Source of the DNA: a virus
Virus record (IMG/VR): IMGVR_UViG_3300036766_000678
Location: 96,001-160,000 of that record
Strand: one strand, 5' to 3'
Length of the DNA: 64,000 nucleotides
Position numbers and translations under genes: made by a program. Numbering within the stretch: the stretch's first letter is position 1; every line of letters starts with the position of its first letter. The notes beneath the pieces were generated by a model that had not been told where the DNA came from, ran no database searches, and was given only the letters and a program-made list of their open reading frames with translations. Shown here one piece after another: positions 3,781 through 26,236 of this stretch.

Positions 3781-3792
3781 AAAATTTATTTG

Positions 3793-5013: not shown

Positions 5014-5037
5014 CGTTATCTTCTCCTTTACTTATCT

Positions 5038-5859: not shown

Positions 5860-6916
5860 TCTGATTTACACAGGCTTTAACGTCTTTTTTAATTTCATGC
5901 TCCCAAAAACGGAAGACTTTGTAACCACATTTTGTTAAATAAGCATTCTGAGATTTATCTATAGCCCGACGTTTGGCAATACCTGCAAATTCATTTACCT
6001 TATGCTCTAAACAACCATGCCAGTAACAGCCATCTGAAAAAATAATAATTTTATATTCTTCAATAACTGCGTCAACTAAAAATTTATTAAATAAAACTTT
6101 TTGGGTTTCAAAAGGAATATTTCGTTTTGTTAATTCTTCTTCAATAGCCACTTCAATTTTTGTATGATCAAATTTAGAAGCACCAATCCAAGCCCATTTA
6201 TCAATTTCACCAGAAGCAATAAGTCTTTTTCTAGTTTTAGATTGTTTCTTAGCTGCTTTTGCAATAATAGGACTATCTTCTTTTGTTAATCCAGAATTCC
6301 ATCCTGCTCCTGGACCAAATGCATTACCAAATTTTTCAATGTGTGTTTGTTGACTTTTCTCCTGTCTAGCTTGAATTTGCTCAGGAGTCATAAAATAATC
6401 AGGACGTTTTAATTTGCCTTCTGCAAATAGTTTCTTACGGGATTCTGATAGATTTTCAGCATTAATTTTTATACGAGGATCTGTCTCTTTTGTATGGCCT
6501 TCGTTCCAATTCAAATTACTACGATTATAAGAACCTTCTTGTTCAAAACCATTTCGTCTTAAATGCCCTTCTAAAATATGGCGAGAAATATTTAATTCAG
6601 CGGCAACATCTGTCATATTACTATTTTTAACTTTATCAATTAACTCTTGCACATTTAAAGATTCAATCCAACGAAATCTCTTTTGCAATCTACGAGCACT
6701 CCCATTTTCAACTCGTTTTGCATCAGCTTTTAATCGAATAGTTGCGTAATCTTGTTGAATATTGAAATGTTCTTTTAATCGCTTAATAATAACAGACCCG
6801 CATTTCCACTTTTTCAATAAAATAGAATAAGATTCAACAGTAAGTTCTTCTTTTAGAAGTTCTTTATTTGGGTACTCATCTAAAATTCGTTGAAATGTAG
6901 TATACATACCTATCAT
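5822..6916 (-). CDS. Vsr/DUF559-like (EDxHD-type) endonuclease, probable free-standing homing endonuclease
   Basis: FLVD.....IIIFSDGCYWHGC...D..QNAYLTKCGYKVFRFWEHE; W(N)xG.TKE repeats; start moved downstream of the promoter. Confidence 0.8.
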   Translation of the reverse strand: MIGMYTTFQRILDEYPNKELLKEELTVESYSILLKKWKCGSVIIKRLKEHFNIQQDYATIRLKADAKRVENGSARRLQKRFRWIESLNVQELIDKVKNSNMTDVAAELNISRHILEGHLRRNGFEQEGSYNRSNLNWNEGHTKETDPRIKINAENLSESRKKLFAEGKLKRPDYFMTPEQIQARQEKSQQTHIEKFGNAFGPGAGWNSGLTKEDSPIIAKAAKKQSKTRKRLIASGEIDKWAWIGASKFDHTKIEVAIEEELTKRNIPFETQKVLFNKFLVDAVIEEYKIIIFSDGCYWHGCLEHKVNEFAGIAKRRAIDKSQNAYLTKCGYKVFRFWEHEIKKDVKACVNQIEAHINEQKNVQ

Positions 6917-12353: not shown

Positions 12354-13097
12354 TTAGTTTCCCCCAAACTTCAATTTCAATGTTTTTTTAATACTATCAG
12401 ATTGTTTTTGTAATCGAGGATCTGTCTCTTTTGTTAAACCAGTATTCCAAGATTTAATAGCATCTGGTAGCCCTTTATTCCAAGGCACTTGATTATACTT
12501 TTTTCCTTTATTTGGAGAAGGTTTACCTAATCTTACTTCAATCATATGTGCTCTATAAATAGGATCTTTCCATCTTTCAATAGCAGCTTTTTTTAAAATA
12601 TCTTTATGTTCTTGAGATAGGGTATGACCTGTTGAGCTAGATTTACCTAAATGTGCCAGACGATTTTTCTCTTTGGCTTCTTCTGTATGGTGTTTCCCAA
12701 AAAATGGGTTTCCCGCCCCTAAAAATTGAATTTTTTTCTTCACACTCATCTTTTCACGAGATTCTTTAGAACGTTTAAGGCCCAAACTTGTACCAGCTTT
12801 TGGTGCTATATTATAGCCAATTTCTGGATTAACACTATTATAATAGTCCATCCAATATTGCTCTCTTATTTCTAGCAATTCTTTTGTTGGATTTTCAATT
12901 CTTTCTATTACAGAAAATTCAAATGCTTCTTCACCATATTTGTTCCAGGCAGCTTGCAAATGAGGATTATGATGCAGATCTTTTCTCAATAAACGTTTAT
13001 GTTCACACCATCTTTTAGAGAAATCAATAGCAGATCCAATATATGGTTTACCATTTACTTTATTTAGAATTTTATAAATTCCACTTTTAGTAACCAT
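12354..13097 (-). CDS. GIY-YIG homing endonuclease with NUMOD3-like motifs
   Basis: SGIYKI.N..NGKPYIGSA...R..EH; NPFFGKHHTEEAKEK. Confidence 0.92.
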   Translation of the reverse strand: MVTKSGIYKILNKVNGKPYIGSAIDFSKRWCEHKRLLRKDLHHNPHLQAAWNKYGEEAFEFSVIERIENPTKELLEIREQYWMDYYNSVNPEIGYNIAPKAGTSLGLKRSKESREKMSVKKKIQFLGAGNPFFGKHHTEEAKEKNRLAHLGKSSSTGHTLSQEHKDILKKAAIERWKDPIYRAHMIEVRLGKPSPNKGKKYNQVPWNKGLPDAIKSWNTGLTKETDPRLQKQSDSIKKTLKLKFGGN

Positions 13098-13098
13098 A

Positions 13099-13653
13099 CT
13101 ATTTCACCTGTAAATTTGAAAGACGTAACGTGAGGTTGTTCTTAAACTGACTTGAGGGTGTTTTACTTGAGATTTCTTTTAGTAGATCTATATTCCCGTT
13201 CTCCTTGATGAAACGCAACTTTAAGAAATGTGACAATTTGCAGAAATCTTCGTAAGAAAATACTTTTGTCAAATCTGTAATAGGTTCACTTTGGGATACA
13301 GAAACTTGATTCACTATCTTTACTTCAGGTAAAATTTGTTGTGGAGGAACTTCTGTTTGTGTTGGTAAAATTTGTGTATTTTGTTCAATAGATTCTACAT
13401 GTAAAACGAGTTTTTCTTCTGGAATTTCTTCTATCCATTTTCCATTAAGATAGCCCTTAAGACTTCCTACTTTAAAACTCTTTCTTACGTCCTCATCATC
13501 CAAGACATCAAAAGGTATTTCCTGACCCTCTTTGACCTCTAATGGTTGGGAAAAGCCATTTGAATAGGTAACATTCAAATCTAAAAATTTCAAAGTAGTA
13601 CTACACTCTTTAGCATTTTTAATACAGACACGATATCTTTTTTGCTTTTCCAT
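13099..13653 (-). CDS. hypothetical protein
   Basis: 184-aa ORF coupled to both neighbours. Confidence 0.55.
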   Translation of the reverse strand: MEKQKRYRVCIKNAKECSTTLKFLDLNVTYSNGFSQPLEVKEGQEIPFDVLDDEDVRKSFKVGSLKGYLNGKWIEEIPEEKLVLHVESIEQNTQILPTQTEVPPQQILPEVKIVNQVSVSQSEPITDLTKVFSYEDFCKLSHFLKLRFIKENGNIDLLKEISSKTPSSQFKNNLTLRLSNLQVK

Positions 13654-14465
13654 TATCTTTTTCGTCCTCTTTTCTTTGGCTTTTTATCTTTTAGTCCTGC
13701 TTGTTCTAACAATTTACCATACCACTCAGAAGCTTCTAATAAATCTATATTATTATTTTTAACCCTATTAGCATGTGGAGTCAAATATTGTAGATTCCAA
13801 ATAACATGTAACCCAGATACAAAATCACCTTGCAAAGGAATATAATGATCTATTTCCATACCATTGGGTTTATTGGTATAGAATGTTTTAATTCCTCTTT
13901 GACCAAATTTAGGAATTCTAGATTTTCTTTTTATTTCTTGTTTTGTATTTGATAATCTATGTACTTCTGGATGAGCATCCCTATATTCTTTTGATTTAAT
14001 ATAAATTTCATCTTTGTGATCTTGGAAATATTTTCTATGATACTCTAAGATTTCCTCAAGATGAGTTAGATAATATTCTTTAGCTTTTGCTAAATTATCT
14101 AGATAATATTGACTATGATATTCTCTTCTTCTAATTTTAATTTCTTGCTTATTAATTTGAAAATAAATTTTTGCATATTCTTTAAGTTCTTCTAAATGTT
14201 CCTGCCTATATTTTTCATTATATGATCTTTTTTCTTCTTTATGTTCAAGTCTATATTTTATTTTACATAAATGGCATTCGCTCCATTCATCTCTACCACA
14301 TATAAAAGTATCATGCCCTCTTGAACAAAATTGCTGTTTAGGACGACCAATAGACCCTGGATGCCTTTCATCTATACATTGGTTGCATTGACTATTTTTA
14401 GTTTTACCACATATAAATGTGTCGTGGCCATAAATACAAAATTGCTTTTTCCATCCTTTAGCCAT
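13653..14465 (-). CDS. HNH endonuclease with FCxxGHD repeats
   Basis: FCIYGHD, FCSRGHD; EIDHYIPLQGDFVSGLHVIWNLQYLT. Confidence 0.8.
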   Translation of the reverse strand: MAKGWKKQFCIYGHDTFICGKTKNSQCNQCIDERHPGSIGRPKQQFCSRGHDTFICGRDEWSECHLCKIKYRLEHKEEKRSYNEKYRQEHLEELKEYAKIYFQINKQEIKIRRREYHSQYYLDNLAKAKEYYLTHLEEILEYHRKYFQDHKDEIYIKSKEYRDAHPEVHRLSNTKQEIKRKSRIPKFGQRGIKTFYTNKPNGMEIDHYIPLQGDFVSGLHVIWNLQYLTPHANRVKNNNIDLLEASEWYGKLLEQAGLKDKKPKKRGRKR

Positions 14466-14473
14466 AAAATTAA

Positions 14474-14525
14474 CTCCTTAGAAGTGGCACTCCACAGGCG
14501 GGAGCTTCTAAGTTCTCCCACCTGT
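14474..14525 (-). promoter_or_regulatory. predicted RNA hairpin/pseudoknot overlapping the RBS of the HNH gene
   Basis: 11-bp stem ACAGGTGGGAG/CTCCCGCCTGT; loop CTTAGAAG is complementary to CTTCTAAG, which runs into the AAGGAG SD. Confidence 0.5.
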
Positions 14526-14592
14526 TTCATACCGAATTATTTTTAACTACTTAATCCCCTGCCATTACCATTTTAAAAACTATTCTTTTAAC

Positions 14593-15360
14593 TTATGGAA
14601 TCATTGTTAACGTAACGTGCTTTGTTCCACCTGCATTAGTAAACACAATCGTATCACCTGAAACAGTAACTTTTGTACCATTAGAGAAACGAACTTCTCC
14701 ATCAAGAAAAGCTACAGCAGGATATCCATCATGTGTTGCACCACTTAAATCCAAACCCCAATGGAAACCCGATCCGGGAGTTGAATTGTTGTTCATTACT
14801 TTAAATGCAGCATTAGCAGTTGTTAATGCGGAATCGCCATCAATGTAAGCAACTACTGCACCATCTGCTTCTGTTACACCATCAGTAATTTGAGCAAGAA
14901 CTGCACCAGCAGGATACGTAGTAGAAAGTGTTCCTGTAATACTATAAGCCCCAATAACCCCACCAAGATATGGTTTTGTTTTGGTAAGACTGCCTCCAAA
15001 CAAATTCCACATCGAAGCTGCTAGGTATTTTGGGTCAGTGCTACTACCAGCACCAGCAGACAATGTAAGATCTGCGGAAGCGGCCTGATAGGAATGCGCT
15101 CCAGAATAATCTTGTGAGTTTGAAACAGTTCCAATAAGTGAACTACTATCTACAGTGTCTTGTGTTGAAAATTTACCAGAAGCAACCAAGTCAGCTAATT
15201 CTGCTTGCATAGAGGTAAATTCATCAGCAGTTAACAATGGAAGAAGGTCAACTGTAGCTCCAGAAACAACGGTTATTAGATTTGTTGGATCAAATCCAGG
15301 AACGCGAAGCGTCACATTTACAGTGCCTTCATTTTTAATAGAACGAATAAGTGTTGACAT
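14593..15360 (-). CDS. putative virion structural protein
   Basis: AAGGAG SD before MSTLIRS at 15360; G/A/T-rich. Confidence 0.5.
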   Translation of the reverse strand: MSTLIRSIKNEGTVNVTLRVPGFDPTNLITVVSGATVDLLPLLTADEFTSMQAELADLVASGKFSTQDTVDSSSLIGTVSNSQDYSGAHSYQAASADLTLSAGAGSSTDPKYLAASMWNLFGGSLTKTKPYLGGVIGAYSITGTLSTTYPAGAVLAQITDGVTEADGAVVAYIDGDSALTTANAAFKVMNNNSTPGSGFHWGLDLSGATHDGYPAVAFLDGEVRFSNGTKVTVSGDTIVFTNAGGTKHVTLTMIP

Positions 15361-15535
15361 TTTTTGTATCTCCTTGAATTTTAATATTTTTGAACTCTTA
15401 TCTAAGGACAACTCGGTTTATTATTCTAATCGAGGCGTTTAGGTGAGAAATCTGTGCAACGCCTATACAGGCTATCTTGCACATACATATTTACTGCATA
15501 GGTCTTACTTGCTAATGTTAGAACATCCTAACAAA

Positions 15536-15610
15536 TGGTTGCACCCCTACGAATCGCACGTAGCCCTCTAGCTTATGAGACTAGAATGATCACTTGATCA
15601 CTTGGGAGCG
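15536..15610 (-). tRNA. atypical tRNA with CAT anticodon (Met-like)
   Basis: Cloverleaf with CTAGT-CTCATAA-GCTAG anticodon arm and encoded CCA; C1:A72 and T:T mismatches in the acceptor stem; T-loop TGCGATT. Confidence 0.6.
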
Positions 15611-15614
15611 AAAT

Positions 15615-15780
15615 TGTTCTCAACCTAACCCTATTAAATCCTTATAGATTTAAGGCTGTTCCAAAAGATACAGAATTTAGGACGGTCGAGATTAAATTGT
15701 GCCTACAGGGGATGACCCTATAGGGCTTTATCAAGAGCTTTATAGGCTCTGAGCCCAATGCCGAAGCATTGGGGGAATAA
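15615..15780 (-). ncRNA. candidate structured RNA between tRNAs
   Basis: CCCAATGC-TTCG-GCATTGGG, CCTATAGGG/CCCTGTAGG and TTAAATC/GATTTAA hairpins in an ORF-free gap. Confidence 0.35.
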
Positions 15781-15787
15781 ATTTATT

Positions 15788-15862
15788 TGGCTGCGAGGAC
15801 AAGATTCGAACTTGTAACCTTCTGTTTAACAGACAGACACTCTACCATTGAGTTACCTCGCA
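15788..15862 (-). tRNA. trnN: tRNA-Asn(GTT)
   Basis: TGCGAGG/CCTCGCA acceptor, TCTGT-CTGTTAA-ACAGA anticodon arm, TTCGAAT T-loop, encoded CCA. Confidence 0.95.
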
Positions 15863-15872
15863 GCTAAAGAAA

Positions 15873-16244
15873 CTATCGTCTACCTGTACGTTTTCTCCAT
15901 GCAGCATTTTTAGCTACCACATCATCGGTGCAAATTCTACAACGACACCCACGATTATAACCACTCGCATTATGTTTTCCATACCCCATATCTTTAAATG
16001 TTTTTAATTTATGGCAAGGATTACATAATACCTGACACTTAGCCAATTCAATTTCTCTTCTTTCTTTAGACCAAGACCAAACTTTATGACTAATTTTTAA
16101 TTTGGGATCTATATGATCTATATTTAAATCGTCCCAAGAACCACATTTAGTACACGGACCATTAGCCAAAAGCCACTCAATACGTCTTTTAGCTATCCAA
16201 ACTCGATTAAATTCTCTTTGTTGATTAGGATCTTTATAAGGCAT
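15873..16244 (-). CDS. HNH endonuclease (123 aa)
   Basis: CTKCGS..DLNIDHIDP...CQVLCNPCHKLKT; real start MPYKD at 16244 (the ORF-track extension reads through tRNAs). Confidence 0.85.
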   Translation of the reverse strand: MPYKDPNQQREFNRVWIAKRRIEWLLANGPCTKCGSWDDLNIDHIDPKLKISHKVWSWSKERREIELAKCQVLCNPCHKLKTFKDMGYGKHNASGYNRGCRCRICTDDVVAKNAAWRKRTGRR

Positions 16245-16250
16245 ATATTT

Positions 16251-16279
16251 ATTATAACATATTAAATATAAAATTACAA
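16251..16279 (-). promoter_or_regulatory. sigma70-like promoter whose -35 lies in the truncated tRNA
   Basis: TTGTAA-17 bp-TATAAT with TG extension; ATG 6 nt after the -10. Confidence 0.6.
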
Positions 16280-16324
16280 CCCTTCGGTTAACAGCCGAGA
16301 GCACTGCCATTGTGCTACTCTTGA
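16275..16324 (-). pseudogene. 5' fragment of a second tRNA-Asn(GTT)
   Basis: TCAAGAG-TA-GCAC-AATGGCA-GTGC-T-CTCGG-CTGTTAA-CCGAA-GGGTT-GTA, then AT-rich sequence; no T-loop or 3' acceptor strand. Confidence 0.7.
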
Positions 16325-16345
16325 ACGAAATAAACTTAATTTGTT

Positions 16346-16421
16346 TGGTGGACCAGACAGGTTCTGCCCCTGCTGCCTCGACATTGCAGGTGTCGCGCTC
16401 TCCTAATTGAGCTACTAGCCC
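16346..16421 (-). tRNA. atypical tRNA-Ala(TGC)
   Basis: GGGCTAG/CTGGTCC acceptor, CGACA-CCTGCAA-TGTCG arm, encoded CCA; T-loop GGCAGAA and C at position 33 are non-canonical. Confidence 0.7.
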
Positions 16422-16422
16422 A

Positions 16423-16635
16423 CTAAACAAACTTAGTTATTTTATAAAGATATTCTAGGTATTCTAAATTACCCATATTTCTTGGGCATTTACAAATTAT
16501 CCAATCCACAGTTTCTAATTTATAACAAATTCTTTCCCCATTTTTACACAAATAATGATCATAATGACCACAACCAGTACATTTAACATGGCGAATTAAA
16601 GAATTATCAATTTTCAAATCAGATGGAAAATCCAT
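16423..16635 (-). CDS. small Cys/His protein, NLEYLE family
   Basis: CTGCGH...CKCPRNMGNLEYLEYLY. Confidence 0.75.
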   Translation of the reverse strand: MDFPSDLKIDNSLIRHVKCTGCGHYDHYLCKNGERICYKLETVDWIICKCPRNMGNLEYLEYLYKITKFV

Positions 16636-16659
16636 ATATTTATTGTATCAGATCTTTAT

Positions 16660-17388
16660 CTATTTGTCAAGGGCTTTCTCTAATTCCCTTCTAACTGCTT
16701 GAGCTTTACACATTTTAATAAGAGTTTCTGGTTTGTGTTTTAGACCAAAATTGCTTTCAGCTACTTTGCGAATATTATACCCATTCCAATCTTCATAGGT
16801 TTTAAATTCATCAATATAATATTGCTCTCTTTCTAAAAGCTTAGAATGCTCTAAAACTTCTTCTAAAATAACACATTCGAAAGCTTTTTCTCCATACTTA
16901 TTCCAAGACTTTTGTAAATAGTCATTATCATGATCATTTAAATATAAATCATGCTTATGTTCTGACCAACGTTTCTCTACATTAATAGCAGAACCAATAT
17001 AAGCTTTCTTACTGATTTTATGAATAATGGCATAAATACCTGATATAGCTTTTCCAATTAAAGAAATTGCTACTTTAGAAATATCTTTATCTGGGGAATT
17101 ATATTTAACTACCCCAACGACAGCAGAACCATTTCTAAGTTTTTCGGGAACATTTAAGCGATTAATTGTTTGATAAGTAAGCCAACATTCTTTACTGCAA
17201 TATTCACTTTTAGAACTTGCAATTTTACCAAACTGTTTACCACAAAATAAACAAATTATATTTTTATGGCCTTTACAATCAGGAACATTCCCAATAGATT
17301 TATTATGACAAATTTCATCACAAAATTTCTCTAAGAAGAAACTATTTTTTGGAGCTTTTACGCAATATTTACATCTTAAATATTTCAT
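16660..17388 (-). CDS. GIY-YIG endonuclease with N-terminal Cys repeats
   Basis: SGIYAIIHK..KKAYIGSA.NVEKRWSEH; N-terminal C..C..FCDEIC and C..C..YCSKEC. Confidence 0.88.
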   Translation of the reverse strand: MKYLRCKYCVKAPKNSFFLEKFCDEICHNKSIGNVPDCKGHKNIICLFCGKQFGKIASSKSEYCSKECWLTYQTINRLNVPEKLRNGSAVVGVVKYNSPDKDISKVAISLIGKAISGIYAIIHKISKKAYIGSAINVEKRWSEHKHDLYLNDHDNDYLQKSWNKYGEKAFECVILEEVLEHSKLLEREQYYIDEFKTYEDWNGYNIRKVAESNFGLKHKPETLIKMCKAQAVRRELEKALDK

Positions 17389-17394
17389 ATATTA

Positions 17395-17423
17395 AGTATA
17401 TCACAAATTAGTCTACATTTCAA
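17395..17423 (-). promoter_or_regulatory. sigma70-like promoter
   Basis: TTGAAA-17 bp-TATACT; ATG 6 nt downstream. Confidence 0.65.
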
Positions 17424-17432
17424 GCCTTTTTA

Positions 17433-17494
17433 TTGATATACTAGGAGGGATTAGCAATAATCCCTCCTATATATCAACATCTTTTAAAGATGTT
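17433..17494 (-). terminator. tandem hairpins after the capsid gene (terminator or stabiliser)
   Basis: 20-bp inverted repeat 17433-17453/17458-17477 with one bulge, plus AACATCT/AGATGTT; no clear U-tract. Confidence 0.55.
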
Positions 17495-17504
17495 TTTCAA
17501 TAGC

Positions 17505-20218
17505 TTACGGAAGTGTAATACGAACAATTCCCTTTGCATATCGAACAAGAAACCCAATATCTTCCCAAATCTTCCTGTTACTTAAACCTTTTATCAAGGC
17601 GAGTAATTATTTCTAATTACTTCTTCATATTTCTATGAAGTTCGGACTATAACTTCATCCTTTCGGAGTCAGGCGTTTAGTCTCTACGGATTCTGAAAAC
17701 TTCTTCAGTCTTTCCTCGGTATTGTCTTCAACATTACTTGGTAAGAGTTCCACCGATACGGCCTAATTTTACTTCACCATTTGGAGGTACAATTTCTTGC
17801 ACACTTGTTTTATTTTAGCGAAGACATCTGCCATCTTATTAACCATTATGTTACGACTCTCTTTGCAAAGAAAGCGGTTAATCATTTCTGATTAACTCTT
17901 CATATTTCTATGAAGTTCGGATCATGTCATTATCTTTCGATATTCTGTGTATGATCTCTACACATTTCCTTATTTCTAAGGGTTAGCTCGAAGTTGCCTT
18001 TTGCCTTTCGGCAGTCAGGTTTTCTTCGAATTAGCAGAATTTTAGAAGGACATTAAAAATATTAGAAACTATTTTTAGAAGTTTATCCTTCATCGTTTCA
18101 ACTAAGAGGTCAGTACGAACAGCCAACACGCCAAGATAATCAGCGGGAGCGAGAACGTAACACTCTGAAGAAGGAACAACGACGGACTCTAGAACGTCAA
18201 CACCCATAATTCCACCTACGCGACCAGCTTTGAGGGCCATGTCCTGGAAATTAGGAGCGAAGATTCCTGCCCCGCCTGTACCAGAAGTAGTCGTATTGAA
18301 TAGAATTAGATCCTTACGTGTGAATGGATTGATCCATAGTTTGGAAGGAACCAAAAGCTTTGAGCTTAGAGTAACAATACCAGTTGCTAGGGCTTCCATC
18401 GTAAGTTTTGTTCCACCTGCGGAAAATACCGTAGGGTTGTTTGTTGCAGCACTCGTACCTGCGAGTGAAGCTACTGGGGTCTGATTCGTTAAGCCGGAGG
18501 CGAACAGAATCAACTGATAACCACGAGTATCTTCCTGTAGCATGATTGAGGCTTTTGCACGTTCTTGCTGTCTATTACTTTATGACCTACTGAGGTAGGC
18601 GGATAATTATTTCTAATTATCTCTCATTATTACTAATGAGGATGGACTATGACTTCACCCTGTTTAAGGGGCTCTACGTTTAGTCTCTGAGGATTTTGAA
18701 GATAATTAATAATTTTATTTTTAAGTTTCAAGACATCTTTTAACTCATAACTCCAAATAACAAGACATTCATGCCCGACTTCTTTGTATTGTTGAATTAC
18801 TTTAACTTCTTCATCTTTAGAATGAAAATGTTCTCCAAATAACTCAATCAATTTATTAGAATTTTTTACAACAAAGTCAGGATATTTTACATGCCCATCA
18901 TTTAAAATTACTTGAAAAGTAGCATCTCCAGTATATTCAATTTCAGAAAAACCTAAATTAAGAATCTGTTTCTCAGCATAGTTTGGTCTTTCACAACCAT
19001 TAGAAAGACATTCATGAGCAATCTCTCTAACCTTCATTACGTTATCTACTCCATATTTATTAAAAACACCATCTCTAGTTTTTAATTGAATTTCTGGAAC
19101 AGACAAAGTAGATTCAACACCATACTTATTTAAATTAGATTCTTTTCTATTTTCTACTGCTTTATCTTGGAAATCTGAAATCATCTCTTTCCAAGAATTT
19201 TGGTATTCTTCTGAATTATATTTACTATCTGGATCTTGCCATTTTTCTGAAACTTTAACACGTCGTTTGTCTTGAAATTCTTTAACTTGACTGGGATTAG
19301 AAACACCATACTTTTCCATACAAGTCTTTTTAGCTGAACTTATTCTCTTAACATTAAGAGAAGAATCTTCTAAAATAGCAAGTGGAAATTTCTGCCTATA
19401 GATATCAAAAGCCATACCATGTGTAAGCAAATGTGTTTTAGTAATCTTTAAAAAAGAATTCTGGCAAACTTCGCAATTAATCATTTTCAACCTTTCCTGC
19501 AAATTGTCCTCTTATTAATTATATCATAAAAGGATGTCCTTGCATATGGTAGAGTTTTACTAAATCTCTTTCGAGATTAGGAACCCATTGTGTTAAGTTC
19601 TGTTAAGAACATCATATTTCCTAAAATTACTTTCATTCCATCTAATCATAGGTCGAGTCGAAATAGGCGACGTTTCAACACGAATACGATCAGCTAGAAC
19701 TTCGAGCTGTTGGGGAAGTCCTTCTACACTAATAGATGCAGCAGGAACATCGAGATCAGCATCGAAAACAGCTTCCTCACCCAATGCCAACTTGTAGGTT
19801 TGGAATAGCTGACGAATACGGCCTTCATACAGAAGGTCTCGCTTTAGGGGCGATAACCATTATGTTAACTATATATTTCTATATAGATCGGACTATATCT
19901 TCATCCTATTTTATTAGGAGATCAACGTGTAGTCTCTACGGATTCTTGAAAACATCTTCAAGTCTTTCCTCGGTATTGTCTTGATAACGAACGTGCAAGT
20001 TCACCATCAGGTTTCCACCGATATAGTTGATTTTTTCCCATTCTCATTACTGAGAAGACAGACGTTTATGGTTGTGTATGGATAGGAGATTCTTTCAAAA
20101 TCTGTTGGGCGATCTTTTGAAGACCCCCAGGCGAATTCATCAGCCGAGTTAGTTTTTCTTCAACTTGGGCACTTGAAAGTACCTCGGATGAAGCTGTAAC
20201 ATTCAGCTTGTCATTCAT
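17505..20218 (-). CDS. major capsid protein split by four group I introns; exons 20218-20100, 19857-19596, 18567-18085, 17843-17817, 17570-17505 (318 aa)
   Basis: AAGGAG SD; joined exons total 957 nt in one frame; junctions read KIAQQ-M-LSPLKR, VLNRT-QERAK, ETMKD-VNKMADVFA-IWEDIG; position after the protease and decoration genes. Confidence 0.88.
17571..17816 (-). mobile_element. group I intron 4 of the capsid gene (246 nt, ORF-less)
   Basis: GACAATACCGAGG, GTAGAGACTAAACG (P7), GAAGTTATAGTCC; follows U, ends in G; P1 pairing weaker than in the others. Confidence 0.88.
17844..18084 (-). mobile_element. group I intron 3 of the capsid gene (241 nt, ORF-less)
   Basis: TGCTAATTCGAAG...CAACTTCGAGC, GTAGAGATCATAC / GACATGATCC (variant P7); follows U, ends AACATAATG. 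Confidence 0.82.
18568..19595 (-). mobile_element. group I intron 2 of the capsid gene (1028 nt) carrying an endonuclease ORF
   Basis: P1 GAACU/GGUUC with U-G at the splice site; P3 CTCTAC/GTAGAG; CAGAGACTAAACG and GAAGTCATAGTCC; ends GACAG. Confidence 0.9.
18633..19502 (-). CDS. intron-encoded PD-(D/E)xK/EDxHD-like homing endonuclease with KYGV repeats
   Basis: YPDFVV....LIELFGEHFH...KEVGHECLVIWSYE; three KYGV repeats. Confidence 0.75.
   Translation of the reverse strand: MQERLKMINCEVCQNSFLKITKTHLLTHGMAFDIYRQKFPLAILEDSSLNVKRISSAKKTCMEKYGVSNPSQVKEFQDKRRVKVSEKWQDPDSKYNSEEYQNSWKEMISDFQDKAVENRKESNLNKYGVESTLSVPEIQLKTRDGVFNKYGVDNVMKVREIAHECLSNGCERPNYAEKQILNLGFSEIEYTGDATFQVILNDGHVKYPDFVVKNSNKLIELFGEHFHSKDEEVKVIQQYKEVGHECLVIWSYELKDVLKLKNKIINYLQNPQRLNVEPLKQGEVIVHPH
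19858..20099 (-). mobile_element. group I intron 1 of the capsid gene (242 nt, ORF-less)
   Basis: P1 ACAGAU/GUCUGU with U-G; GACAATACCGAGG, GTAGAGACTACACG, GAAGATATAGTCC; ends AACATAATG. Confidence 0.9.
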
Positions 20219-20286
20219 ATAAATCTCCTTTAAATTACAAGTCAGCCTCACGGCCAATCTTGTTTACAACTAAACTCTAATTAAAA

Positions 20287-20757
20287 TTAGAGAATTGACT
20301 TAATTTCCAACTGGGTAGGATTGGTAGCAGTATCGTAACCAACAACATATCCAACAATAACGCCCGTTGTGGTAGCAGATGTGATAATACCATCTGTTGC
20401 ACTAGACGTGTATACTGGAGCATTAACTGCATACGTTGTGGCTGCGTAAGGTGATCCACGACCATCATCAAACAGGACGAAATCTCCACCGTTTAAATAA
20501 ACGGATTCGAGACCTCCCCTATTAAAATTCGTGTAATCAAAACCTTGACCAGCTACTTCACCATTTGAGGGTTGGAGTGGGAAAAATACATTTGATTCAA
20601 TTGCAAGACCATAGGGCTTACCAGTTGTATTGGTTTTGACCCAAGGCTGAACTGTTCCATCTGCATTAATCTGTAATGCCATTCCACCAACAATATTCCC
20701 AGAGAGAATTTTGGCACCGCCGCTGCGGTTAACTTCCTTAATCTGACGTATTGCCAT
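20287..20757 (-). CDS. putative capsid decoration/stabilising protein (156 aa)
   Basis: AGGAG SD before MAIRQIK at 20757; small beta-rich protein directly upstream of the capsid gene. Confidence 0.6.
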   Translation of the reverse strand: MAIRQIKEVNRSGGAKILSGNIVGGMALQINADGTVQPWVKTNTTGKPYGLAIESNVFFPLQPSNGEVAGQGFDYTNFNRGGLESVYLNGGDFVLFDDGRGSPYAATTYAVNAPVYTSSATDGIITSATTTGVIVGYVVGYDTATNPTQLEIKSIL

Positions 20758-20960
20758 AATAGACTCCTTGTTTTTTATTTTGTGTTTTGTAACAGGCGAG
20801 TCTAGTCTTTTCTTAGTTGAGGGGTACTTATTTAAAGGCCACACAACATGTGTGGAAAATTGTTTATCTTTTATACTTTTAAACGAGGCTAAACATGAAA
20901 CGAATAAGATGTTATAAATTTTCCAATATAACAAATTTTGAACCTAGGTTTTATTCAAAT

Positions 20961-21527
20961 CTATTTTAATCCTGCTTCTTCTAACAACTTACCATACCAT
21001 TCTGACACTTCAAGTAAATTGCATTTATTATGCTTTCGGGCATTCTGGGTTTGTGTAAGACATTGTAAATTCCAAGAAACATGTAATCCAGATACTTTTT
21101 TACCTTGCAATGGAATATAATGATCCCCAACCATATCATCTGGTTTATTTTTATAAAATTCAATTATATTATCCCAGTCTGTCCAAGCTACCTCTCTAAG
21201 ATTTCTATTTGTCTGATTTTTGATATTGTATGCTAAACATTTTTCTCGATTATTTATAAAATATTGCCTATCAATTTCGGCCTTTTGTTCTCTATGATTA
21301 TCCCACCATTCTTTTTGTTTGAGTGCTAAAATAGGGCCATTTTCAGTACGATAATCTTTCATTTTAGCCAAAAGAATATCTCTATGTTCTTGAAAATATT
21401 CTTTATAATAATTAGAGTTTTCTAAACTCCATTGCCTTTTACAATCATTACAAGCATTTCTGGAATCTCTTCCATAAATATTTGTGTCATGACCATGTTT
21501 ACAAAATTGAGATTTAGGTCTAGCCAT
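20961..21527 (-). CDS. HNH endonuclease with one FCxxGHD repeat
   Basis: FCKHGHD; GDHYIPLQGKKVSGLHVSWNLQCLT. Confidence 0.8.
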   Translation of the reverse strand: MARPKSQFCKHGHDTNIYGRDSRNACNDCKRQWSLENSNYYKEYFQEHRDILLAKMKDYRTENGPILALKQKEWWDNHREQKAEIDRQYFINNREKCLAYNIKNQTNRNLREVAWTDWDNIIEFYKNKPDDMVGDHYIPLQGKKVSGLHVSWNLQCLTQTQNARKHNKCNLLEVSEWYGKLLEEAGLK

Positions 21528-21529
21528 GT

Positions 21530-24500
21530 TTATTTTTTAGGTACATCATTAATTGTCTTATGTTTTAATGTGCCCATACTTCTAAAAATATTTCCAACTT
21601 CGTCATGATCACTAGGATCATAAGTCAAATAAGGGACACGAGTGGCTTTCTTCTCATTAACTGTAGAAGAGGGCATTGGAAGTTCTTCAATAGCTTTTTC
21701 CATGGCCTTTAACGCCATATCATCGAAGGCAAGTAATTCTTTATGCTTGGCCTTAATTGCATGAGTCATAGCTTTATGACGAGCATCTAATAGATAAGTA
21801 CCAGATTTAAGTTCACTATCTAGTACATCTGGGCTCAATTGAAGAACATTTTTGTCAACCATATTAGCAACAATTTTCTGGCATCGTTCAGAACGTGCAG
21901 AAAGAATAGCAGCAAATTTCTTTGCTTTCTCTTCCTCTTGAGCCTTAACTTCAATAGCTTTTAGTTCGGCCTCTTTCTTAGAAATAGCTTCCTCACGAGT
22001 TTTAAGAGCAGATTCTTTCATACCCATTTCATCTTCATGAGCTTCTTCAAGTGCGGGATGCTCTTCAACTTTAGGAGCCTCTTCCATCTTAGGAGCTTCT
22101 GGCATAGCGGGAGCCATCTCAGGCTTTTTTTCCTCAACTGGAGGAAGACCAAGAACAGCTTTCATAAGCTTAAGCACTTCACCAACTTCTTTACCAAAAC
22201 CATCTGGCAATCTTTTAACTTCCTTGCCATCTTTCTCAATAATAACTTCTTTAGATTCTTTGTCCTTATGAGCAGAGTATCCTTCACCAATATCAAGTTT
22301 ATCTGCTTTATCAAATGCAGAAACTTCTTCTTTAGGAGTATCACCAGGGAGAGCTAAATTCTCAGTTTCGTGCTCAGGAACTCCAGCAGGTTTCTCTTCA
22401 ACCTTAACATCATCAACTAAAGGATCTGCGTGTTCAGGTGTAGGAGGCATTTCAGTTGCAGCAGATTTATTAACAGCCACATCTGGCTCTTTTGTAAGAT
22501 TAGGAGTAGTATGTTCTGTTTTACCTTTAACAGCTTCATCAGGCTTGCTAGAGGGATTAGAAGAAGGTTCCTTTTTATCCTTTACTGCTTGATCTGGTTC
22601 CTTAGTTAAATTAGGTGTCTTATTTACTTTATCCCCATCAACACTTGTTTCAGGAGTAGCAGATTTGCCTTCTTCTGGTAAAGTTGTACCCTTAACAGAT
22701 TCATCTGGTTTTGCATCAAATTTTTTCGTACCTTCTGGTAAAGTAGATCCATCAACTGCTTCTGTTGGTTTATCAGCTGCTTTCTTTTCCATAATAGTCT
22801 CCTGAGATGATTTCTTTGGAACATCCATACCCTTTTCTCTAGCTTCAGAATAGGCTGCTGCTACCGCTTGGGCTCGTTCCATTCCATCTTCTTTAATATG
22901 TTTTTCTACATGCTTCTTAATAAATTCTTGTGCTTCGGGTGTCATTGAAGACCACTTAATTTGTGCATTAGCTTCTTTATAATTAACAGAGGCTTTCTTT
23001 TCATCAACTAATTTGCAAGGTTTACCATTCATACTATGTCGTCCATATTCCAGCATCTCACCACATTCGGGACATTTTGTTGCTGCTTCTTTTTTAGAAC
23101 CCTTCTCTTCAGCTTCCATTTCCTCAGTTCCCTTAGCTACATAAGAAGTTTCAACCTCTTTCTCTGATTTCTCCAGTTTCTTCTCTTCTGGATTCTTAGG
23201 AGTAGTGGTAACTTCTTTACCTTCAGCTTCAGGCTTAGGTTCTGAATAATCTGTTTTTACTTCTTTTGCTTTAGGGGCGGCAGGTCCTGTTTGACCCTTT
23301 TCCTGCCCTGGCATTTTAAATTGTGGATCAGTCTTAGCATCTGTACCTGCTGGTGCTGCTGGACCTTTTTGAGCTTGTTCCTGTCCTGGTTTTGTTACTG
23401 GGGAATTTTTAACATTGTGTTCTTTATTATTTGTGCCAGTAGAAGGTTTTGCATAACTACCATCAGGTCCTAGTTCTGGACCTTTTGCGGTTTTATTTAA
23501 TTTATGTGTTACATCCCATAAATCAGCCAATTTCTCAATTCCTTCTTTAGTATAACGAGCAACAACCTCTTTACCATATGCTTCACTGGTTGCCCATTTC
23601 TGATCATCAAAAGAAAGTGTTTCAAATGTACTACCCCAAATATCTTTAAGAGAAGCATCTAATAGGCACTTAGCATCTTCATACACTGACCAAGTAGAAG
23701 CAAGTACATTATTTTTATCTTCATTAAATTTGGCTGAGATGGAAGATTTCTTATCTTTTTTCTTCCCATAATCACATGTTACACACGTAACTTCATCCCC
23801 CACTTTACGGGCAGCAACACTATCACAGTTTGGACATTTGACAAATTCTGTTTTAGCTGTTTCTTTTCCCAATTCCTCTTTAGCCACTGCTTCAACTTTC
23901 TTTTCCAATAATTGAGCAGCAAAGCTATCTTTTACTTTAGCCACAATTCTAGATAGAAATGTTTCTTCTTTCTTAGTGGCATCAGCAACCACTTCTTTAT
24001 TAACTACTTCGTTAGCTTTCTTGGTTTTATGCTGAATATAGCTCTCAAGTTGCTCCATTTCTAGGGCGGAAATTTTTGATAAAATCTTTTTTTGATCTTC
24101 GGATACAATATTCTTATCTGACATGGATGACTCCTTGGATGATTCTTGTGCTTCTTTATCAGTAGTTGGGCAAATTCCGCAGAACTCAGCCTTCAAATTT
24201 TTTGCTGTCTCTGAATCTACTTTAGTTAAAAGACCTTCAAATTGTTTTACAAAATCTTGTTGCTCATCTTTAGAAAGAGCGGCGGTTTTCGAAAGTCTGC
24301 TTCTCATATTGCTTAAAATTGTTTTCACAATCGCTTTAGGGTCTGCGGGAATTCCAACCAAAGACAATTCATTGAATGCAATCCCACTATTTAAAGACAT
24401 GGCTTTAACTTTTTGACCTTTAGAAATGTTATACTTAAGATTATCAACTTCAGCATCAAACTCATGTCCCAAAGAAAATGCTTCAAGATGTTTACAACGT

Positions 24501-26236
24501 GGATCAGCATCTGAATGAAGAACCAAACCACACACGCTACACGCACTTTCATCAACGGAACAATTGTGAACAGCAACACCATTAACAAGATAAGAATTTT
24601 TCTCTTTAACACTAAAATTATAGACAAGTAATTTTTGATCTTCTACTTCAATACCACTAATTGGGATCATTAAATAATTATTTACTAAAAGTTTCTGTTG
24701 TTTATTACCACCTACAGGCAAACCAGTAGGAATCTTATCACAATATTTTGCCATTTCATGTAATGATTCCCCTGAAATACAAATTCTATATGTTCTAGAG
24801 GCAGCAATTGTTTTAGTGCCACTTTTAAAATTAGCTATTTTTTCTTTATAATGCTTTTCTTCTAATGCAAAAAGAAGAGAAGCACGACAAAATAACCATG
24901 CCATCTGATAAATAAAAGCTTGGGAAGCAGTTTCCAAATAGGCACGTCTAATATGGGGATGAGCATCTTTTCTATTTATCTCTTCATAATCGCTATAGCA
25001 GCCATCCCCGCAAAGAAATGCTCCTAGAAGTTCTTTTTGGAATTCAATATTCCATAAAAGAACAGAGGGATCAAGCTTTTTAGTTTTAGCTTTTTCTCCA
25101 CCTAATTGCATTAATTTTTCTGCCAGTTCTTTATCATATATAAAAATACGGCAAGCATTTAATTTTGGATATTTCTTTATAGTTACTTTCTTTTTAGTAA
25201 TAGAGCTAATAAGGGTTTTAATCTCTTTAGCATATTTGGCTTCTTTTATATGCAAAGTAAACATTGCTCCACCAACTAAATTGCAACGACAAATCTTATT
25301 TACTTTTCTACATGGGTAACATTTATAATAAATAATATTGCCCTCTGCAAGATACCAACCTAAAAGACGTGCAAACTCTTTAGTTATATTATCGGGGGTT
25401 TTTTCTTCTTTAGAAAAGGGAAAAGATACATAATCCCCTGGACGAAGATTCTCAGCAGATATCCACTCAAAATATTTAGCATTACTGGCTATTTTTTCTA
25501 GGGATTGCCCAGTAATACTATGCCCTGCCTCAACTAAAGAGACAGAATTTAAAATATTAATTATGTTCTCTTTTTTTATGCTCCAAAAAGGATGTTCATT
25601 TGTGGCAGTAATAGGAAGTTTTGTAAATCCTAAAAGTTTTAAAGTATACATTAACCCGTCATAAGGTCTAATCATTGTTTCAATTACTTCATCAGAAAGA
25701 CCTAAATGATTTAAAACTTTATCCCCTACTTTGATATCTTCGATATTTTTAAAGGTATGATCGGATAGTAAAATTTGGGTCCCTTCTTTAAAACAACCCA
25801 TACTCACCGTGTTCAAAATACCAGTTTGAACTTGCCTCGCTAGTTCAGGAAATAAATATTTATCGAGCTTCGCTAATACTTCAATATATTTCTCACCAGT
25901 CTCTGGATCTTCAACAGGATATGAGTCGATGAGTCTGCCCACGGCTTTCAAAACCGAATCAGCCGAATGGTCTATGTACAATCCCTTTCCTTGAAAAGAA
26001 GCATAACTTTTTAAAAGATCATCCCAACCAAACGCATCCCAATTGCCGTTAGCTCCATTTGTTTCATAACTTGAAATTGCACGAGCCCTCAGATACAAAA
26101 ACTGTTCGTTTTTAGGTTCAATGATATGTGAAGATCCTGGAACCTTTTCTTCCATAGGACGATCAATCAATAATTCTTCCACTGCTGCGGCAGTTTTTAA
26201 AATCTTCCATGAAGAACCAATTTTTTGTAATGACAT
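21530..26236 (-). CDS. prohead protease-scaffold fusion with an intein
   Basis: LYIDH...VGR.ID and VSMG|C protease-type motifs; Zn-finger CSVCG; long acidic/coiled-coil C-terminus; lies between portal and capsid genes. Confidence 0.82.
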   Translation of the reverse strand: MSLQKIGSSWKILKTAAAVEELLIDRPMEEKVPGSSHIIEPKNEQFLYLRARAISSYETNGANGNWDAFGWDDLLKSYASFQGKGLYIDHSADSVLKAVGRLIDSYPVEDPETGEKYIEVLAKLDKYLFPELARQVQTGILNTVSMGCFKEGTQILLSDHTFKNIEDIKVGDKVLNHLGLSDEVIETMIRPYDGLMYTLKLLGFTKLPITATNEHPFWSIKKENIINILNSVSLVEAGHSITGQSLEKIASNAKYFEWISAENLRPGDYVSFPFSKEEKTPDNITKEFARLLGWYLAEGNIIYYKCYPCRKVNKICRCNLVGGAMFTLHIKEAKYAKEIKTLISSITKKKVTIKKYPKLNACRIFIYDKELAEKLMQLGGEKAKTKKLDPSVLLWNIEFQKELLGAFLCGDGCYSDYEEINRKDAHPHIRRAYLETASQAFIYQMAWLFCRASLLFALEEKHYKEKIANFKSGTKTIAASRTYRICISGESLHEMAKYCDKIPTGLPVGGNKQQKLLVNNYLMIPISGIEVEDQKLLVYNFSVKEKNSYLVNGVAVHNCSVDESACSVCGLVLHSDADPRCKHLEAFSLGHEFDAEVDNLKYNISKGQKVKAMSLNSGIAFNELSLVGIPADPKAIVKTILSNMRSRLSKTAALSKDEQQDFVKQFEGLLTKVDSETAKNLKAEFCGICPTTDKEAQESSKESSMSDKNIVSEDQKKILSKISALEMEQLESYIQHKTKKANEVVNKEVVADATKKEETFLSRIVAKVKDSFAAQLLEKKVEAVAKEELGKETAKTEFVKCPNCDSVAARKVGDEVTCVTCDYGKKKDKKSSISAKFNEDKNNVLASTWSVYEDAKCLLDASLKDIWGSTFETLSFDDQKWATSEAYGKEVVARYTKEGIEKLADLWDVTHKLNKTAKGPELGPDGSYAKPSTGTNNKEHNVKNSPVTKPGQEQAQKGPAAPAGTDAKTDPQFKMPGQEKGQTGPAAPKAKEVKTDYSEPKPEAEGKEVTTTPKNPEEKKLEKSEKEVETSYVAKGTEEMEAEEKGSKKEAATKCPECGEMLEYGRHSMNGKPCKLVDEKKASVNYKEANAQIKWSSMTPEAQEFIKKHVEKHIKEDGMERAQAVAAAYSEAREKGMDVPKKSSQETIMEKKAADKPTEAVDGSTLPEGTKKFDAKPDESVKGTTLPEEGKSATPETSVDGDKVNKTPNLTKEPDQAVKDKKEPSSNPSSKPDEAVKGKTEHTTPNLTKEPDVAVNKSAATEMPPTPEHADPLVDDVKVEEKPAGVPEHETENLALPGDTPKEEVSAFDKADKLDIGEGYSAHKDKESKEVIIEKDGKEVKRLPDGFGKEVGEVLKLMKAVLGLPPVEEKKPEMAPAMPEAPKMEEAPKVEEHPALEEAHEDEMGMKESALKTREEAISKKEAELKAIEVKAQEEEKAKKFAAILSARSERCQKIVANMVDKNVLQLSPDVLDSELKSGTYLLDARHKAMTHAIKAKHKELLAFDDMALKAMEKAIEELPMPSSTVNEKKATRVPYLTYDPSDHDEVGNIFRSMGTLKHKTINDVPKK
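24563..25795 (-). mobile_element. LAGLIDADG intein (411 aa) in the prohead protease
   Basis: C1-FKEGTQIL, TNEHPFW, LLGWYLAEG, LLGAFLCGDG, VHN|C. Confidence 0.95.

What the first reader, a model, noticed from the sequence alone, without database searches (positions are those of the whole stretch)
17505..20218. Major capsid gene split by four group I introns, with a 27-nt micro-exon
Seen: four intervening segments, each following U, ending in G and carrying P7-type R/S elements. Removing them gives one 957-nt frame (119+262+483+27+66). Exon 4 (17817-17843) encodes only VNKMADVFA between two introns. Established: group I introns in phages are mostly reported in nucleotide-metabolism, terminase and similar genes. 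Four in a gene that must be expressed at very high level is unusual, and automated annotation would miss the protein. The exon 4/5 junction is the least certain.
Basis: partly seen in the sequence, partly recalled or inferred. Interest (0 to 1): 0.86.

Follow-up and report, generated by a model that had tools for sequence, protein, structure and literature searches.

The report
Phage capsid gene with four introns
The only major capsid gene of a 180-kb uncultured phage is cut into five pieces, one just 27 bases long, by four related self-splicing (group I) introns; the reading is correct, but capsid genes riddled with such introns have already been described in other phages.

Summary
On the minus strand, 20218-17505, five exons of 119, 262, 483, 27 and 66 nt are separated by four group I introns of 242, 1028, 241 and 246 nt.

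- **RNA evidence:** All four match Rfam RF00028. One is above the gathering score; the other three have E-values of 1e-7 to 1e-10. Each follows a U that forms a U.G pair with an internal guide sequence, has a contiguous P10, ends in G, and shows compensatory P3, P4, P7, P8 and P9 helices.
- **Junction evidence:** The joined 318-aa product aligns without gaps, at 97.5% identity, to one uninterrupted ORF in a syntenic relative (L033). dN/dS is 0.046.
- **Protein identity:** That relative's protein folds as an HK97-type capsid protein. The genome holds no second capsid gene.
- **Intron 2:** It carries a DUF7487-type homing endonuclease ORF.
- **Exon 4/5 junction:**

Splicing itself was not observed, because no RNA data could be reached.

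The kind is known. Yutin 2021 described a crAss-like phage capsid gene in five fragments, and single capsid introns are known in LittleE and Tuc2009. This scan has also noted multi-intron capsid genes in many other genomes.

Relatives carry the same intron family at four other sites in the capsid module.

The parts
20100..20218 (-). Exon 1 (119 nt; codons 1-39 plus 2 nt of codon 40). The ATG at 20218 is preceded by AAGGAG.
   Evidence: Sequence. The junction QQ|M-LSPLKRD matches P0001 and L033.
19858..20099 (-). Intron 1, group I, 242 nt, no ORF. The guide sequence GUCUGU lies at 20063-20058 and pairs with the exon end ACAGAU. P10 is 3 bp. A P2 hairpin is present.
   Evidence: RF00028 58.9 bits, above the gathering score. 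P1/P10. P3 AUCAAC/GUUGAU and P4 UCGGU/ACCGA. Core model R1 scores 90.4 bits.
19596..19857 (-). Exon 2 (262 nt), codons 40-127.
   Evidence: Matches phrog_2522 positions 67-153. The blastn match to L033 ends at this exon's start (19857) and a few bases inside its end (19603).
18568..19595 (-). Intron 2, group I, 1028 nt, with an endonuclease ORF in the P6 loop. The guide sequence GGUUC lies at 19585-19581. P3 CUCUAC/GUAGAG pairs across the ORF.
   Evidence: RF00028 41.6 bits for the 3' part and 16.1 bits for the 5' part. P1. P3, P4 and P5. R1 scores 89.7 bits.
18633..19484 (-). Homing endonuclease ORF inside intron 2 (283 aa, ATG at 19484). Its last codons run through P6', P7, P3', P8 and P7' and stop in P9.
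   Evidence: Pfam DUF7487 at 59 bits (cut-off 27); phrog_3339 and phrog_12131 'homing endonuclease'. Homologous to the intron ORF of L056. Homologues carry DUF559.
18085..18567 (-). Exon 3 (483 nt), codons 128-288.
   Evidence: Matches phrog_2522 positions 157-281. 70% identical to P0001. The blastn match to L033 covers exactly 18567-18085 at 92.3%.
17844..18084 (-). Intron 3, group I, 241 nt, no ORF, no P2. The guide sequence GUCCUUC lies at 18051-18045. P10 is UUAAU paired with GUUAA.
   Evidence: RF00028 48.6 bits. P1 7 bp and P10 5 bp. P7 shows a compensatory change, GAUCA/UGAUC. R1 scores 78.5 bits.
17817..17843 (-). Exon 4, a 27-nt micro-exon encoding VNKMADVFA (codons 289-297). Its first 5 nt form P10 of intron 3 and its last 7 nt form P1 of intron 4.
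   Evidence: The homologues read ...MKDVNKMAD(I/V)FAIWED... without a break. Pairings.
17571..17816 (-). Intron 4, group I, 246 nt, no ORF, no P2. The guide sequence GGUGAAG lies at 17778-17772. P10 is UCCAAAU paired with AUUUGGG.
   Evidence: RF00028 38.7 bits, E 1e-7. P1 7 bp and P10 7 bp; 2 of 5000 shuffles reach this. R1 scores 88.9 bits. 82% identical to the intron in L005.
17505..17570 (-). Exon 5 (66 nt including the stop), codons 298-318.
   Evidence: IWEDIGFLVRYAKGIVRITLP aligns to the C-terminus of L033 and P0001.

Best explanation
This is the single HK97-fold major capsid gene of a roughly 180-kb uncultured tailed phage. It is transcribed as one pre-mRNA that contains four paralogous group I ribozymes. 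Each intron recognises its own 5' exon end through a guide sequence (P1 with a U.G pair at the cleavage site) and aligns the next exon through P10. Each is then removed by the standard two-step guanosine-initiated transesterification. The result is a 957-nt mRNA for a 318-aa capsid protein. The 27-nt exon 4 is long enough to hold P10 of intron 3 (5 nt) and P1 of intron 4 (7 nt) without overlap, so both neighbouring ribozymes can fold at once. In-frame stop codons 0 to 17 codons into each intron release ribosomes that read past a 5' splice site. Intron 2 additionally encodes a homing endonuclease, which presumably drives its spread into intron-less alleles. Shown here: the sequence anatomy, the ribozyme signatures, exact collinearity with an intron-less homologue, purifying selection, and the absence of a second capsid gene. 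Inferred: that splicing happens and is efficient in vivo, and that the endonuclease is active.
For: - RF00028 matches all four introns.
- P1 with a U.G pair plus a contiguous P10 sits at each proposed junction: 6+3, 5+2, 7+5 and 7+7 bp. Shuffles rarely reach these values.
- P3 and P4 differ in sequence but stay complementary in all four introns.
- P7, P8 and P9 have compensatory changes at 6 of 15 pairs.
- The joined protein aligns over residues 1-318 without gaps, at 97.5% identity, to the uninterrupted ORF L033:3203-4156. The blastn matches to L033 end at or within 7 nt of the exon edges.
- dN/dS against L033 is 0.046, with synonymous changes in every exon including the micro-exon.
- The genome (94% complete by CheckV) has no other capsid homologue.
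- Exons 2 and 3 hit phrog_2522 'major head protein' collinearly.
- The L033 protein model matches HK97 capsids and encapsulins at probability 1.00.
- The gene lies between a prohead-protease-containing ORF and portal on one side and other late genes on the other.
- Related introns with matching P1 and P10 occur in capsid-module genes of relatives from independent samples.
Against: No RNA evidence was obtained. Introns 2, 3 and 4 score below Rfam's gathering threshold (41.6, 48.6 and 38.7 against 50 bits). They are missed, in whole or in part, when the whole window or genome is searched. P10 of intron 2 is only 2 bp. The endonuclease ORF of intron 2 overlaps the catalytic core, so its translation could interfere with folding. 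The structure model is of the 97.5%-identical homologue, not of the joined product itself, and has a moderate mean pLDDT of 70.7.
Confidence: 0.9

Rival explanations
1. The gene is a decaying pseudogene in a defective or mis-assembled genome. The inserts are dead intron relics that are not removed, and no functional capsid protein is made from this locus.
For: Splicing was not observed. Three introns fall below Rfam's gathering score. The record is a metagenome assembly classed as linear.
Against: All five exons stay in one frame and are 97.5% identical in protein to an intact homologue, although only 85% identical in DNA; dN/dS is 0.046. No other capsid gene exists in a genome estimated 94% complete. 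Every intron keeps an intact P1, P10, P3, P4, P7, P8, P9 and terminal G, with guide sequences matched to its own exon.
Confidence: 0.03
2. The introns are genuine, but one or more of them cannot self-splice. The candidates are the P2-less introns 3 and 4, or intron 2 with its ORF overlapping the core. These would depend on a protein cofactor or on a neighbouring ribozyme. Splicing would then be partial and would act as a timing or dosage control on capsid production, possibly with skipping of exon 4.
For: Introns 3 and 4 lack P2. The exon between them is only 27 nt. [quoted passage not shown] The endonuclease ORF of intron 2 runs through P7 to P9.
Against: Each intron has its own complete core and its own guide sequence, so nothing requires help in trans. 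Skipping exon 4 would remove 9 conserved residues of a beta strand.
Confidence: 0.07

Closest known systems
Capsid gene of crAss-like phage Zeta-group genome OLRF01000054, and Delta-group capsid genes (Yutin et al. 2021, PMC7886860)
   Same: A phage major capsid gene split into five fragments. At least three of the four spacers are group I introns. It was found in an uncultured phage of similar size (145-192 kb).
   Different: It is an unrelated phage lineage; the only capsid match in the cultured-phage collection here is Bacillus phage G gp27 at 29.6%. In the paper the introns were recognised through their endonuclease domains. Here three of the four introns have no ORF and are about 240 nt long, all four are paralogues, and the junctions are defined to the base with P1 and P10.
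Staphylococcus phage Twort orf142, with three group I introns in one gene (Landthaler & Shub 1999, as cited in PMC5618024 and PMC6669764; the paper itself was not held)
   Same: [quoted passage not shown]
   Different: Three introns rather than four. I could not check the function of orf142 or its exon sizes. My recollection is that the Twort introns belong to subgroup IA2, with P7.1 and P7.2; the introns here have P8 directly after P3'.
Single capsid-gene introns in mycobacteriophage LittleE and lactococcal phage Tuc2009 (Pope et al. 2013, PMC3706429)
   Same: A group I-type intron in a highly expressed major capsid gene. For LittleE, splicing was shown by RT-PCR and N-terminal sequencing, and the intron carries an endonuclease gene.
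   Different: One intron per gene, and no micro-exon.
Jug jumbo gut phages (PMC12880540)
   Same: Many small (about 206 nt), mostly ORF-less group I introns interrupt essential phage genes, alongside numerous free-standing homing endonucleases. Splicing of 37 of 76 introns was confirmed by metatranscriptome reads.
   Different: The examples reported there are terL, nrdD and the DNA polymerase gene. In the genome here, only the capsid gene was found to carry introns.
Fungal mitochondrial cox1 genes, for example Agaricus bisporus (PMC2987802)
   Same: Many introns packed into one gene, with exons down to 3 nt. A 27-nt exon between two group I introns is therefore mechanistically unremarkable.
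   Different: These are organellar genes with large, ORF-bearing introns that often depend on maturases, not phage genes.

Membership tests
Group I catalytic intron (Rfam RF00028) | Match to the covariance model at or above the gathering score (50 bits) | tested here: inconclusive
   Intron 1 scores 58.9 bits and passes. Introns 3, 2 and 4 score 48.6, 41.6 and 38.7 bits, below the cut-off, but with E-values of 1e-10 to 1e-7 on the 3.1-kb region.
Group I catalytic intron (Rfam RF00028) | The 5' exon ends in a U that forms a U.G wobble with an internal guide sequence (P1), and the intron ends in G | tested here: met
   All four introns meet this. P1 is 6, 5, 7 and 7 bp, and the last base of each intron is G.
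Group I catalytic intron (Rfam RF00028) | P10 pairing between the guide-sequence extension and the start of the 3' exon | tested here: met
   P10 is 3, 2, 5 and 7 bp, directly adjoining P1 in each case. P1 plus P10 was reached by 91, 77, 14 and 2 of 5000 shuffles.
Group I catalytic intron (Rfam RF00028) | Conserved core helices P3, P4, P6, P7, P8 and P9 in canonical order, with P3 and P7 crossing | tested here: met
   P3 and P4 are complementary and different in each of the four introns. P7, P8 and P9 have 6 of 15 pairs with compensatory changes.
Group I catalytic intron (Rfam RF00028) | Guanosine-dependent self-splicing | not testable with these tools
No spliced-junction contig was found in metagenome contigs.
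HK97-fold major capsid protein (phrog_2522 'major head protein') | Profile match covering the protein collinearly | tested here: met
   Exon 2 matches profile positions 67-153 (E 2e-4). Exon 3 matches 157-281 of 318 (E 1e-10). No Pfam family was hit.
HK97-fold major capsid protein (phrog_2522 'major head protein') | HK97 fold | tested here: met
   The model of the 97.5%-identical uninterrupted homologue (pLDDT 70.7) matches HK97 heads, other phage capsids and encapsulins at probability 1.00, E about 1e-10 to 1e-11.
HK97-fold major capsid protein (phrog_2522 'major head protein') | Location in a head-morphogenesis module, and being the only such gene in the genome | tested here: met
   Portal and protease-containing ORFs lie upstream. 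tblastn finds no second copy in the genome.
Intron-encoded homing endonuclease (DUF7487 with a DUF559/Vsr-like nuclease) | DUF7487 repeat region | tested here: met
   PF24308 at 59 bits against a cut-off of 27.
Intron-encoded homing endonuclease (DUF7487 with a DUF559/Vsr-like nuclease) | Recognisable C-terminal nuclease domain | tested here: inconclusive
   DUF559 is not detected in the window's own protein and there is no PDB sequence match. The homologues P0023, P0029 and P0030 have DUF559 at the equivalent C-terminal position. The C-terminus aligns with the L056 intron ORF.

The most novel reading that the evidence does not exclude
The four introns belong to one small, mostly ORF-less group I intron family that is actively hopping between short matching target sites in the capsid module of this phage clade, by reverse-splicing-type transposition rather than endonuclease homing. 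Eight insertion sites were seen among about 60 relatives. One intron lineage (77% identical copies) sits behind the same 7-nt target AAUGGCU in two unrelated genes: the capsid gene in L060 and codon 2 of the upstream gene in L016/L017. Window intron 4 has an 82%-identical copy 13 codons downstream in L005/L049, behind a similar ...CGCU target. That copy carries in its P1 loop a surrogate of the last nine codons, so the capsid protein would be full-length whether or not it splices.
Probability: 0.35. Interest if true: 0.6.

Novelty: new member of a known kind. Interest (0 to 1): 0.36.

Why it matters
The finding shows that an essential, very highly expressed structural gene can tolerate four ribozymes and a 27-nt exon. 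It gives a base-exact gene model that automated annotation breaks into fragments. The clade has intron-less, one-intron and four-intron alleles of the same gene, with eight distinct insertion sites. That makes it a compact natural data set for asking how ORF-less group I introns reach new sites. Multi-intron phage capsid genes are already published, and this scan has seen them repeatedly, so the value is incremental.

Tried and rejected
- **RNA evidence:** Two exact-match scans of metagenome contigs for spliced junctions found nothing: one for exon 3-4-5 (57 nt) and one for exon 2-3 (33 nt). This says little, because only identical sequence would match.
- **Cultured phages:** Megablast of the region against cultured phages gave no match. 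A more sensitive blastn of intron 4 gave only 40-50-nt core matches to introns of Yersinia, Escherichia, Staphylococcus and crAss-like phages.
- **Related loci:** Searching with a divergent alignment failed for lack of conserved stretches. The single protein P0001 worked.
- **Rfam sensitivity:** Rfam run on the whole window or genome finds only one or two of the four introns. Rfam also missed the introns of L056 and L060 that the custom core model then found. 'No other intron in the genome' therefore holds only for introns resembling RF00028 or this family.
- **Endonuclease:** The PDB sequence search gave only chance hits.
- **Promoters and terminators:** The scan was at chance level.
- **Alternative 5' junction:** For intron 1 I considered a junction one base later, which would give QQI instead of QQM. 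I rejected it.
- **Core-less mini-introns:** Other windows of this scan reported these, so I checked for them here. There are none: the joined coding sequence aligns to L033 without any gap.
- **Inteins:** Rejected, because every intervening segment has stops in the exon frame.
Full report
**Where the window lies.** The window is bases 96001-160000 of a 180,416-bp IMG/VR virus record that CheckV rates 94% complete. The finding lies on the minus strand.

**The observation.**
- Exon 1: 20218-20100.
- Intron 1: 20099-19858 (242 nt).
- Exon 2: 19857-19596.
- Intron 2: 19595-18568 (1028 nt).
- Exon 3: 18567-18085.
- Intron 3: 18084-17844 (241 nt).
- Exon 4: 17843-17817 (27 nt, VNKMADVFA).
- Intron 4: 17816-17571 (246 nt).
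- Exon 5: 17570-17505.

**Are the inserts group I introns?**
- Rfam at gathering threshold on the whole window reports only intron 1 (58.9 bits).
- Searching the 3.1-kb region alone finds all four on the minus strand. Intron 1 scores 58.9 bits, intron 3 scores 48.6, the 3' part of intron 2 scores 41.6 (its 5' part 16.1), and intron 4 scores 38.7. E-values run from 1e-13 to 1e-7.
- Each proposed 5' exon ends in a U that pairs with the G of a guide sequence 11-39 nt into the intron. The P1 pairs are ACAGAU/GUCUGU, GAACU/GGUUC, GAAGGAU/GUCCUUC and CUUCGCU/GGUGAAG.
- The bases just 5' of each guide sequence pair with the start of the next exon. These P10 helices are 3, 2, 5 and 7 bp. Each intron ends in G.
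- Shuffling the 5' 100 nt of each intron reached the observed P1 plus P10 length in 91, 77, 14 and 2 of 5000 trials.
- P3 reads AUCAAC/GUUGAU, CUCUAC/GUAGAG, UUCUG/CAGAA and UUAGGC/GCCUGA in the four introns. P4 reads UCGGU/ACCGA, UGCAA/UUGCA, UCGAAG/CUUCGA and UCGGU/ACCGA. The sequences differ but stay complementary and keep the canonical order.
- In intron 2 the two strands of P3 lie 877 nt apart, on either side of the ORF. That ties its two halves into one ribozyme.
- An alignment of the four P7-P8-P9 cores gives 15 consensus pairs, 6 of them with compensatory changes. One example is P7, GACUA/UAGUC against GAUCA/UGAUC in intron 3.
- Introns 1, 3 and 4 are 64-70% identical to one another over their whole length, so they are paralogues.
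- P8 follows P3' directly, with no P7.1 or P7.2. Introns 3 and 4 have no P2. I did not assign a subgroup.

**Are the junctions right?**
- An exhaustive profile-free search with exon 3 found P0001, a 322-aa uninterrupted protein 70% identical to exon 3 over its aligned stretch. It reads straight through all four junctions.
- Fetching relatives from IMG/VR gave 59 loci. In the closest, L033, one uninterrupted ORF (3203-4156) aligns to the joined product over residues 1-318, without a gap, at 97.5% identity.
- At the DNA level L033 is a syntenic relative of about 80% identity, and its blastn matches to the window end at or within 7 nt of the exon edges: 20096, 19857-19603, 18567-18085 and 17570.
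- The joined coding sequence differs from L033 at 143 of 957 bases (stop codon included) but at only 8 residues. dN/dS is 0.046. Synonymous changes occur in every exon, including 7 changes in the 27-nt exon.
- tblastn of the joined protein against the whole genome finds only these exons.
- The split gene is therefore the phage's only capsid gene and is under strong purifying selection. That is hard to explain unless the introns are removed.

**What the protein is.**
- Exons 2 and 3 hit phrog_2522 'major head protein' collinearly, at profile positions 67-153 and 157-281 of 318. Pfam has no family for it.
- The only hit among cultured phages is Bacillus phage G major head protein, at 29.6%.
- An AlphaFold model of the L033 protein, built with 23 aligned homologues, has mean pLDDT 70.7. 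It matches HK97 heads, other phage capsids and encapsulins at probability 1.00.
- On that model, intron 1 falls in an N-terminal helix (codon 40, phase 2). Intron 2 falls in the long helix spanning residues 120-151 (between codons 127 and 128). Introns 3 and 4 bracket residues 289-297, which form a turn and the first half of a C-terminal beta strand.
- Upstream lie a 156-aa protein, a free-standing endonuclease, a 1568-aa ORF with a prohead-protease segment, and a portal ORF.

**Intron 2's ORF.**
- The ORF (19484-18636, 283 aa) matches Pfam DUF7487 and two PHROG 'homing endonuclease' families.
- Its homologues end in a DUF559 (Vsr-like) nuclease domain. That domain is not detectable directly in this protein.
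- Its start codon sits in the 5' strand of P6. Its last 22 codons run through P6', P7, P3', P8 and P7', with the stop in P9.

**How it most likely works.** One late transcript carries all five exons. Each ribozyme folds, binds guanosine, cleaves after its U.G pair and ligates the exons. Exon 4 contributes its first 5 nt to P10 of intron 3 and its last 7 nt to P1 of intron 4, so the two reactions do not compete for the same bases. Ribosomes that read past a 5' splice site meet a stop after 11, 0, 17 and 15 codons. These steps are inferred from the anatomy.

**Relatives.** A covariance model of the P7-P9 core (R1) finds only these four copies in the 180-kb genome. It does find related introns in the capsid modules of relatives. 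Every one of them has a P1 with a U.G pair and a contiguous P10.
- L060 has a 213-nt intron after VNQMA, which is inside the stretch that forms the micro-exon here.
- L005 and L049 have a 245-nt (242-nt in L049) intron after RYA that is 82% identical to window intron 4.
- L056 has a 1169-nt intron after SPGG(L), carrying a homologue of the intron 2 endonuclease.
- L016 and L017 have a 216-nt intron after codon 2 of the gene upstream of the capsid gene.

The clade therefore shows eight insertion sites. None of the roughly 60 relatives shares any of the window's four sites. Most relatives, including the nearest one, have no intron in the capsid gene.

**Comparison with what is known.**
- Single group I introns in capsid genes are published for mycobacteriophage LittleE (with RT-PCR proof) and for Tuc2009 (PMC3706429).
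- Yutin et al. 2021 (PMC7886860) state that Delta-group crAss-like phages typically have group I introns in the capsid gene. They also figure a Zeta-group capsid gene split into five fragments.
- Jug phages average 18.5 small introns per genome, and many of these have metatranscriptome support (PMC12880540).
- Twort orf142 has three introns (cited in PMC5618024).
- Exons as short as 3 nt occur in the heavily intron-split fungal cox1 gene (PMC2987802).
- This scan's own notes list multi-intron capsid genes in many other genomes. I did not test those.

**Verdict.** The thing is a new member of a known kind.

Noticed in passing
L005:6940-7184 and L049:6940-7181: A 245-nt (L005; 242 nt in L049) relative of window intron 4 (82% identical) sits after codon RYA near the end of the capsid gene. 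Its P1 loop encodes KSIVKIVVS plus a stop, while splicing would give KGIVKIVVS plus a stop, which is the C-terminus of the intron-less alleles L003 and L004. The capsid protein would be full-length with or without splicing, so tblastn scores the gene as uninterrupted.
   Followed up: partly
L060:1441-1653 and L016:5241-5456 (also L017): Introns 77% identical to each other, with the same P1 (AAUGGCU/GGCCAUU) but different P10, sit in two unrelated genes. One follows VNQMA of the capsid gene; the other follows codon 2 (MA|IRQIKEVN) of the gene upstream of it. This is the pattern expected from guide-sequence-directed (reverse-splicing-type) transposition.
   Followed up: partly
L056:4884-6052: A 1169-nt intron in the capsid gene after SPGG(L), 7 codons upstream of the window's intron 1 site. 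P1 and P10 are 7+7 bp. It carries a 311-aa ORF (5001-5933) homologous to the window's intron 2 endonuclease. Rfam missed it; the custom core model found it.
   Followed up: partly
window 18085-18567 compared with L033:3584-4066: Exon 3 is 92% identical in DNA to L033, whereas the other exons and the flanks are 73-82% identical. The low-divergence tract spans roughly the interior of exon 3, between introns 2 and 3. This suggests a recent exchange bounded by the introns.
   Followed up: no
window 29537-33523 (minus strand): A 1329-aa ORF matches a portal protein at residues 484-665, but also endonuclease and HNH families at residues 247-420 and 774-899. It may be a portal gene with inteins or in-frame endonuclease insertions.
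   Followed up: no
window 12357-21527 (minus strand): Free-standing homing-endonuclease-like genes are unusually dense around the capsid gene. They are GIY-YIG at 16663-17388 (directly downstream, also present in L033) and 12357-13097, HNH at 15876-16430, and endonuclease VII-like at 20964-21527 and 13656-14465.
   Followed up: no
window 21533-26236 (minus strand): A 1568-aa ORF in which only residues 72-149 resemble a head maturation protease. The rest has no known family.
   Followed up: no
L069-L146: The core motif of this intron family (AGAGACTAMACG, a gap of 5 to 30 nt, then GRTGAAGNNATAGTCC) occurs in 78 IMG/VR contigs. Three of them are contigs that also hold capsid relatives (L104, L105 and L136, on the contigs of L049, L039 and L005). 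L105 holds a copy 80% identical to the 3' part of window intron 2, in a gene I did not identify.
   Followed up: no
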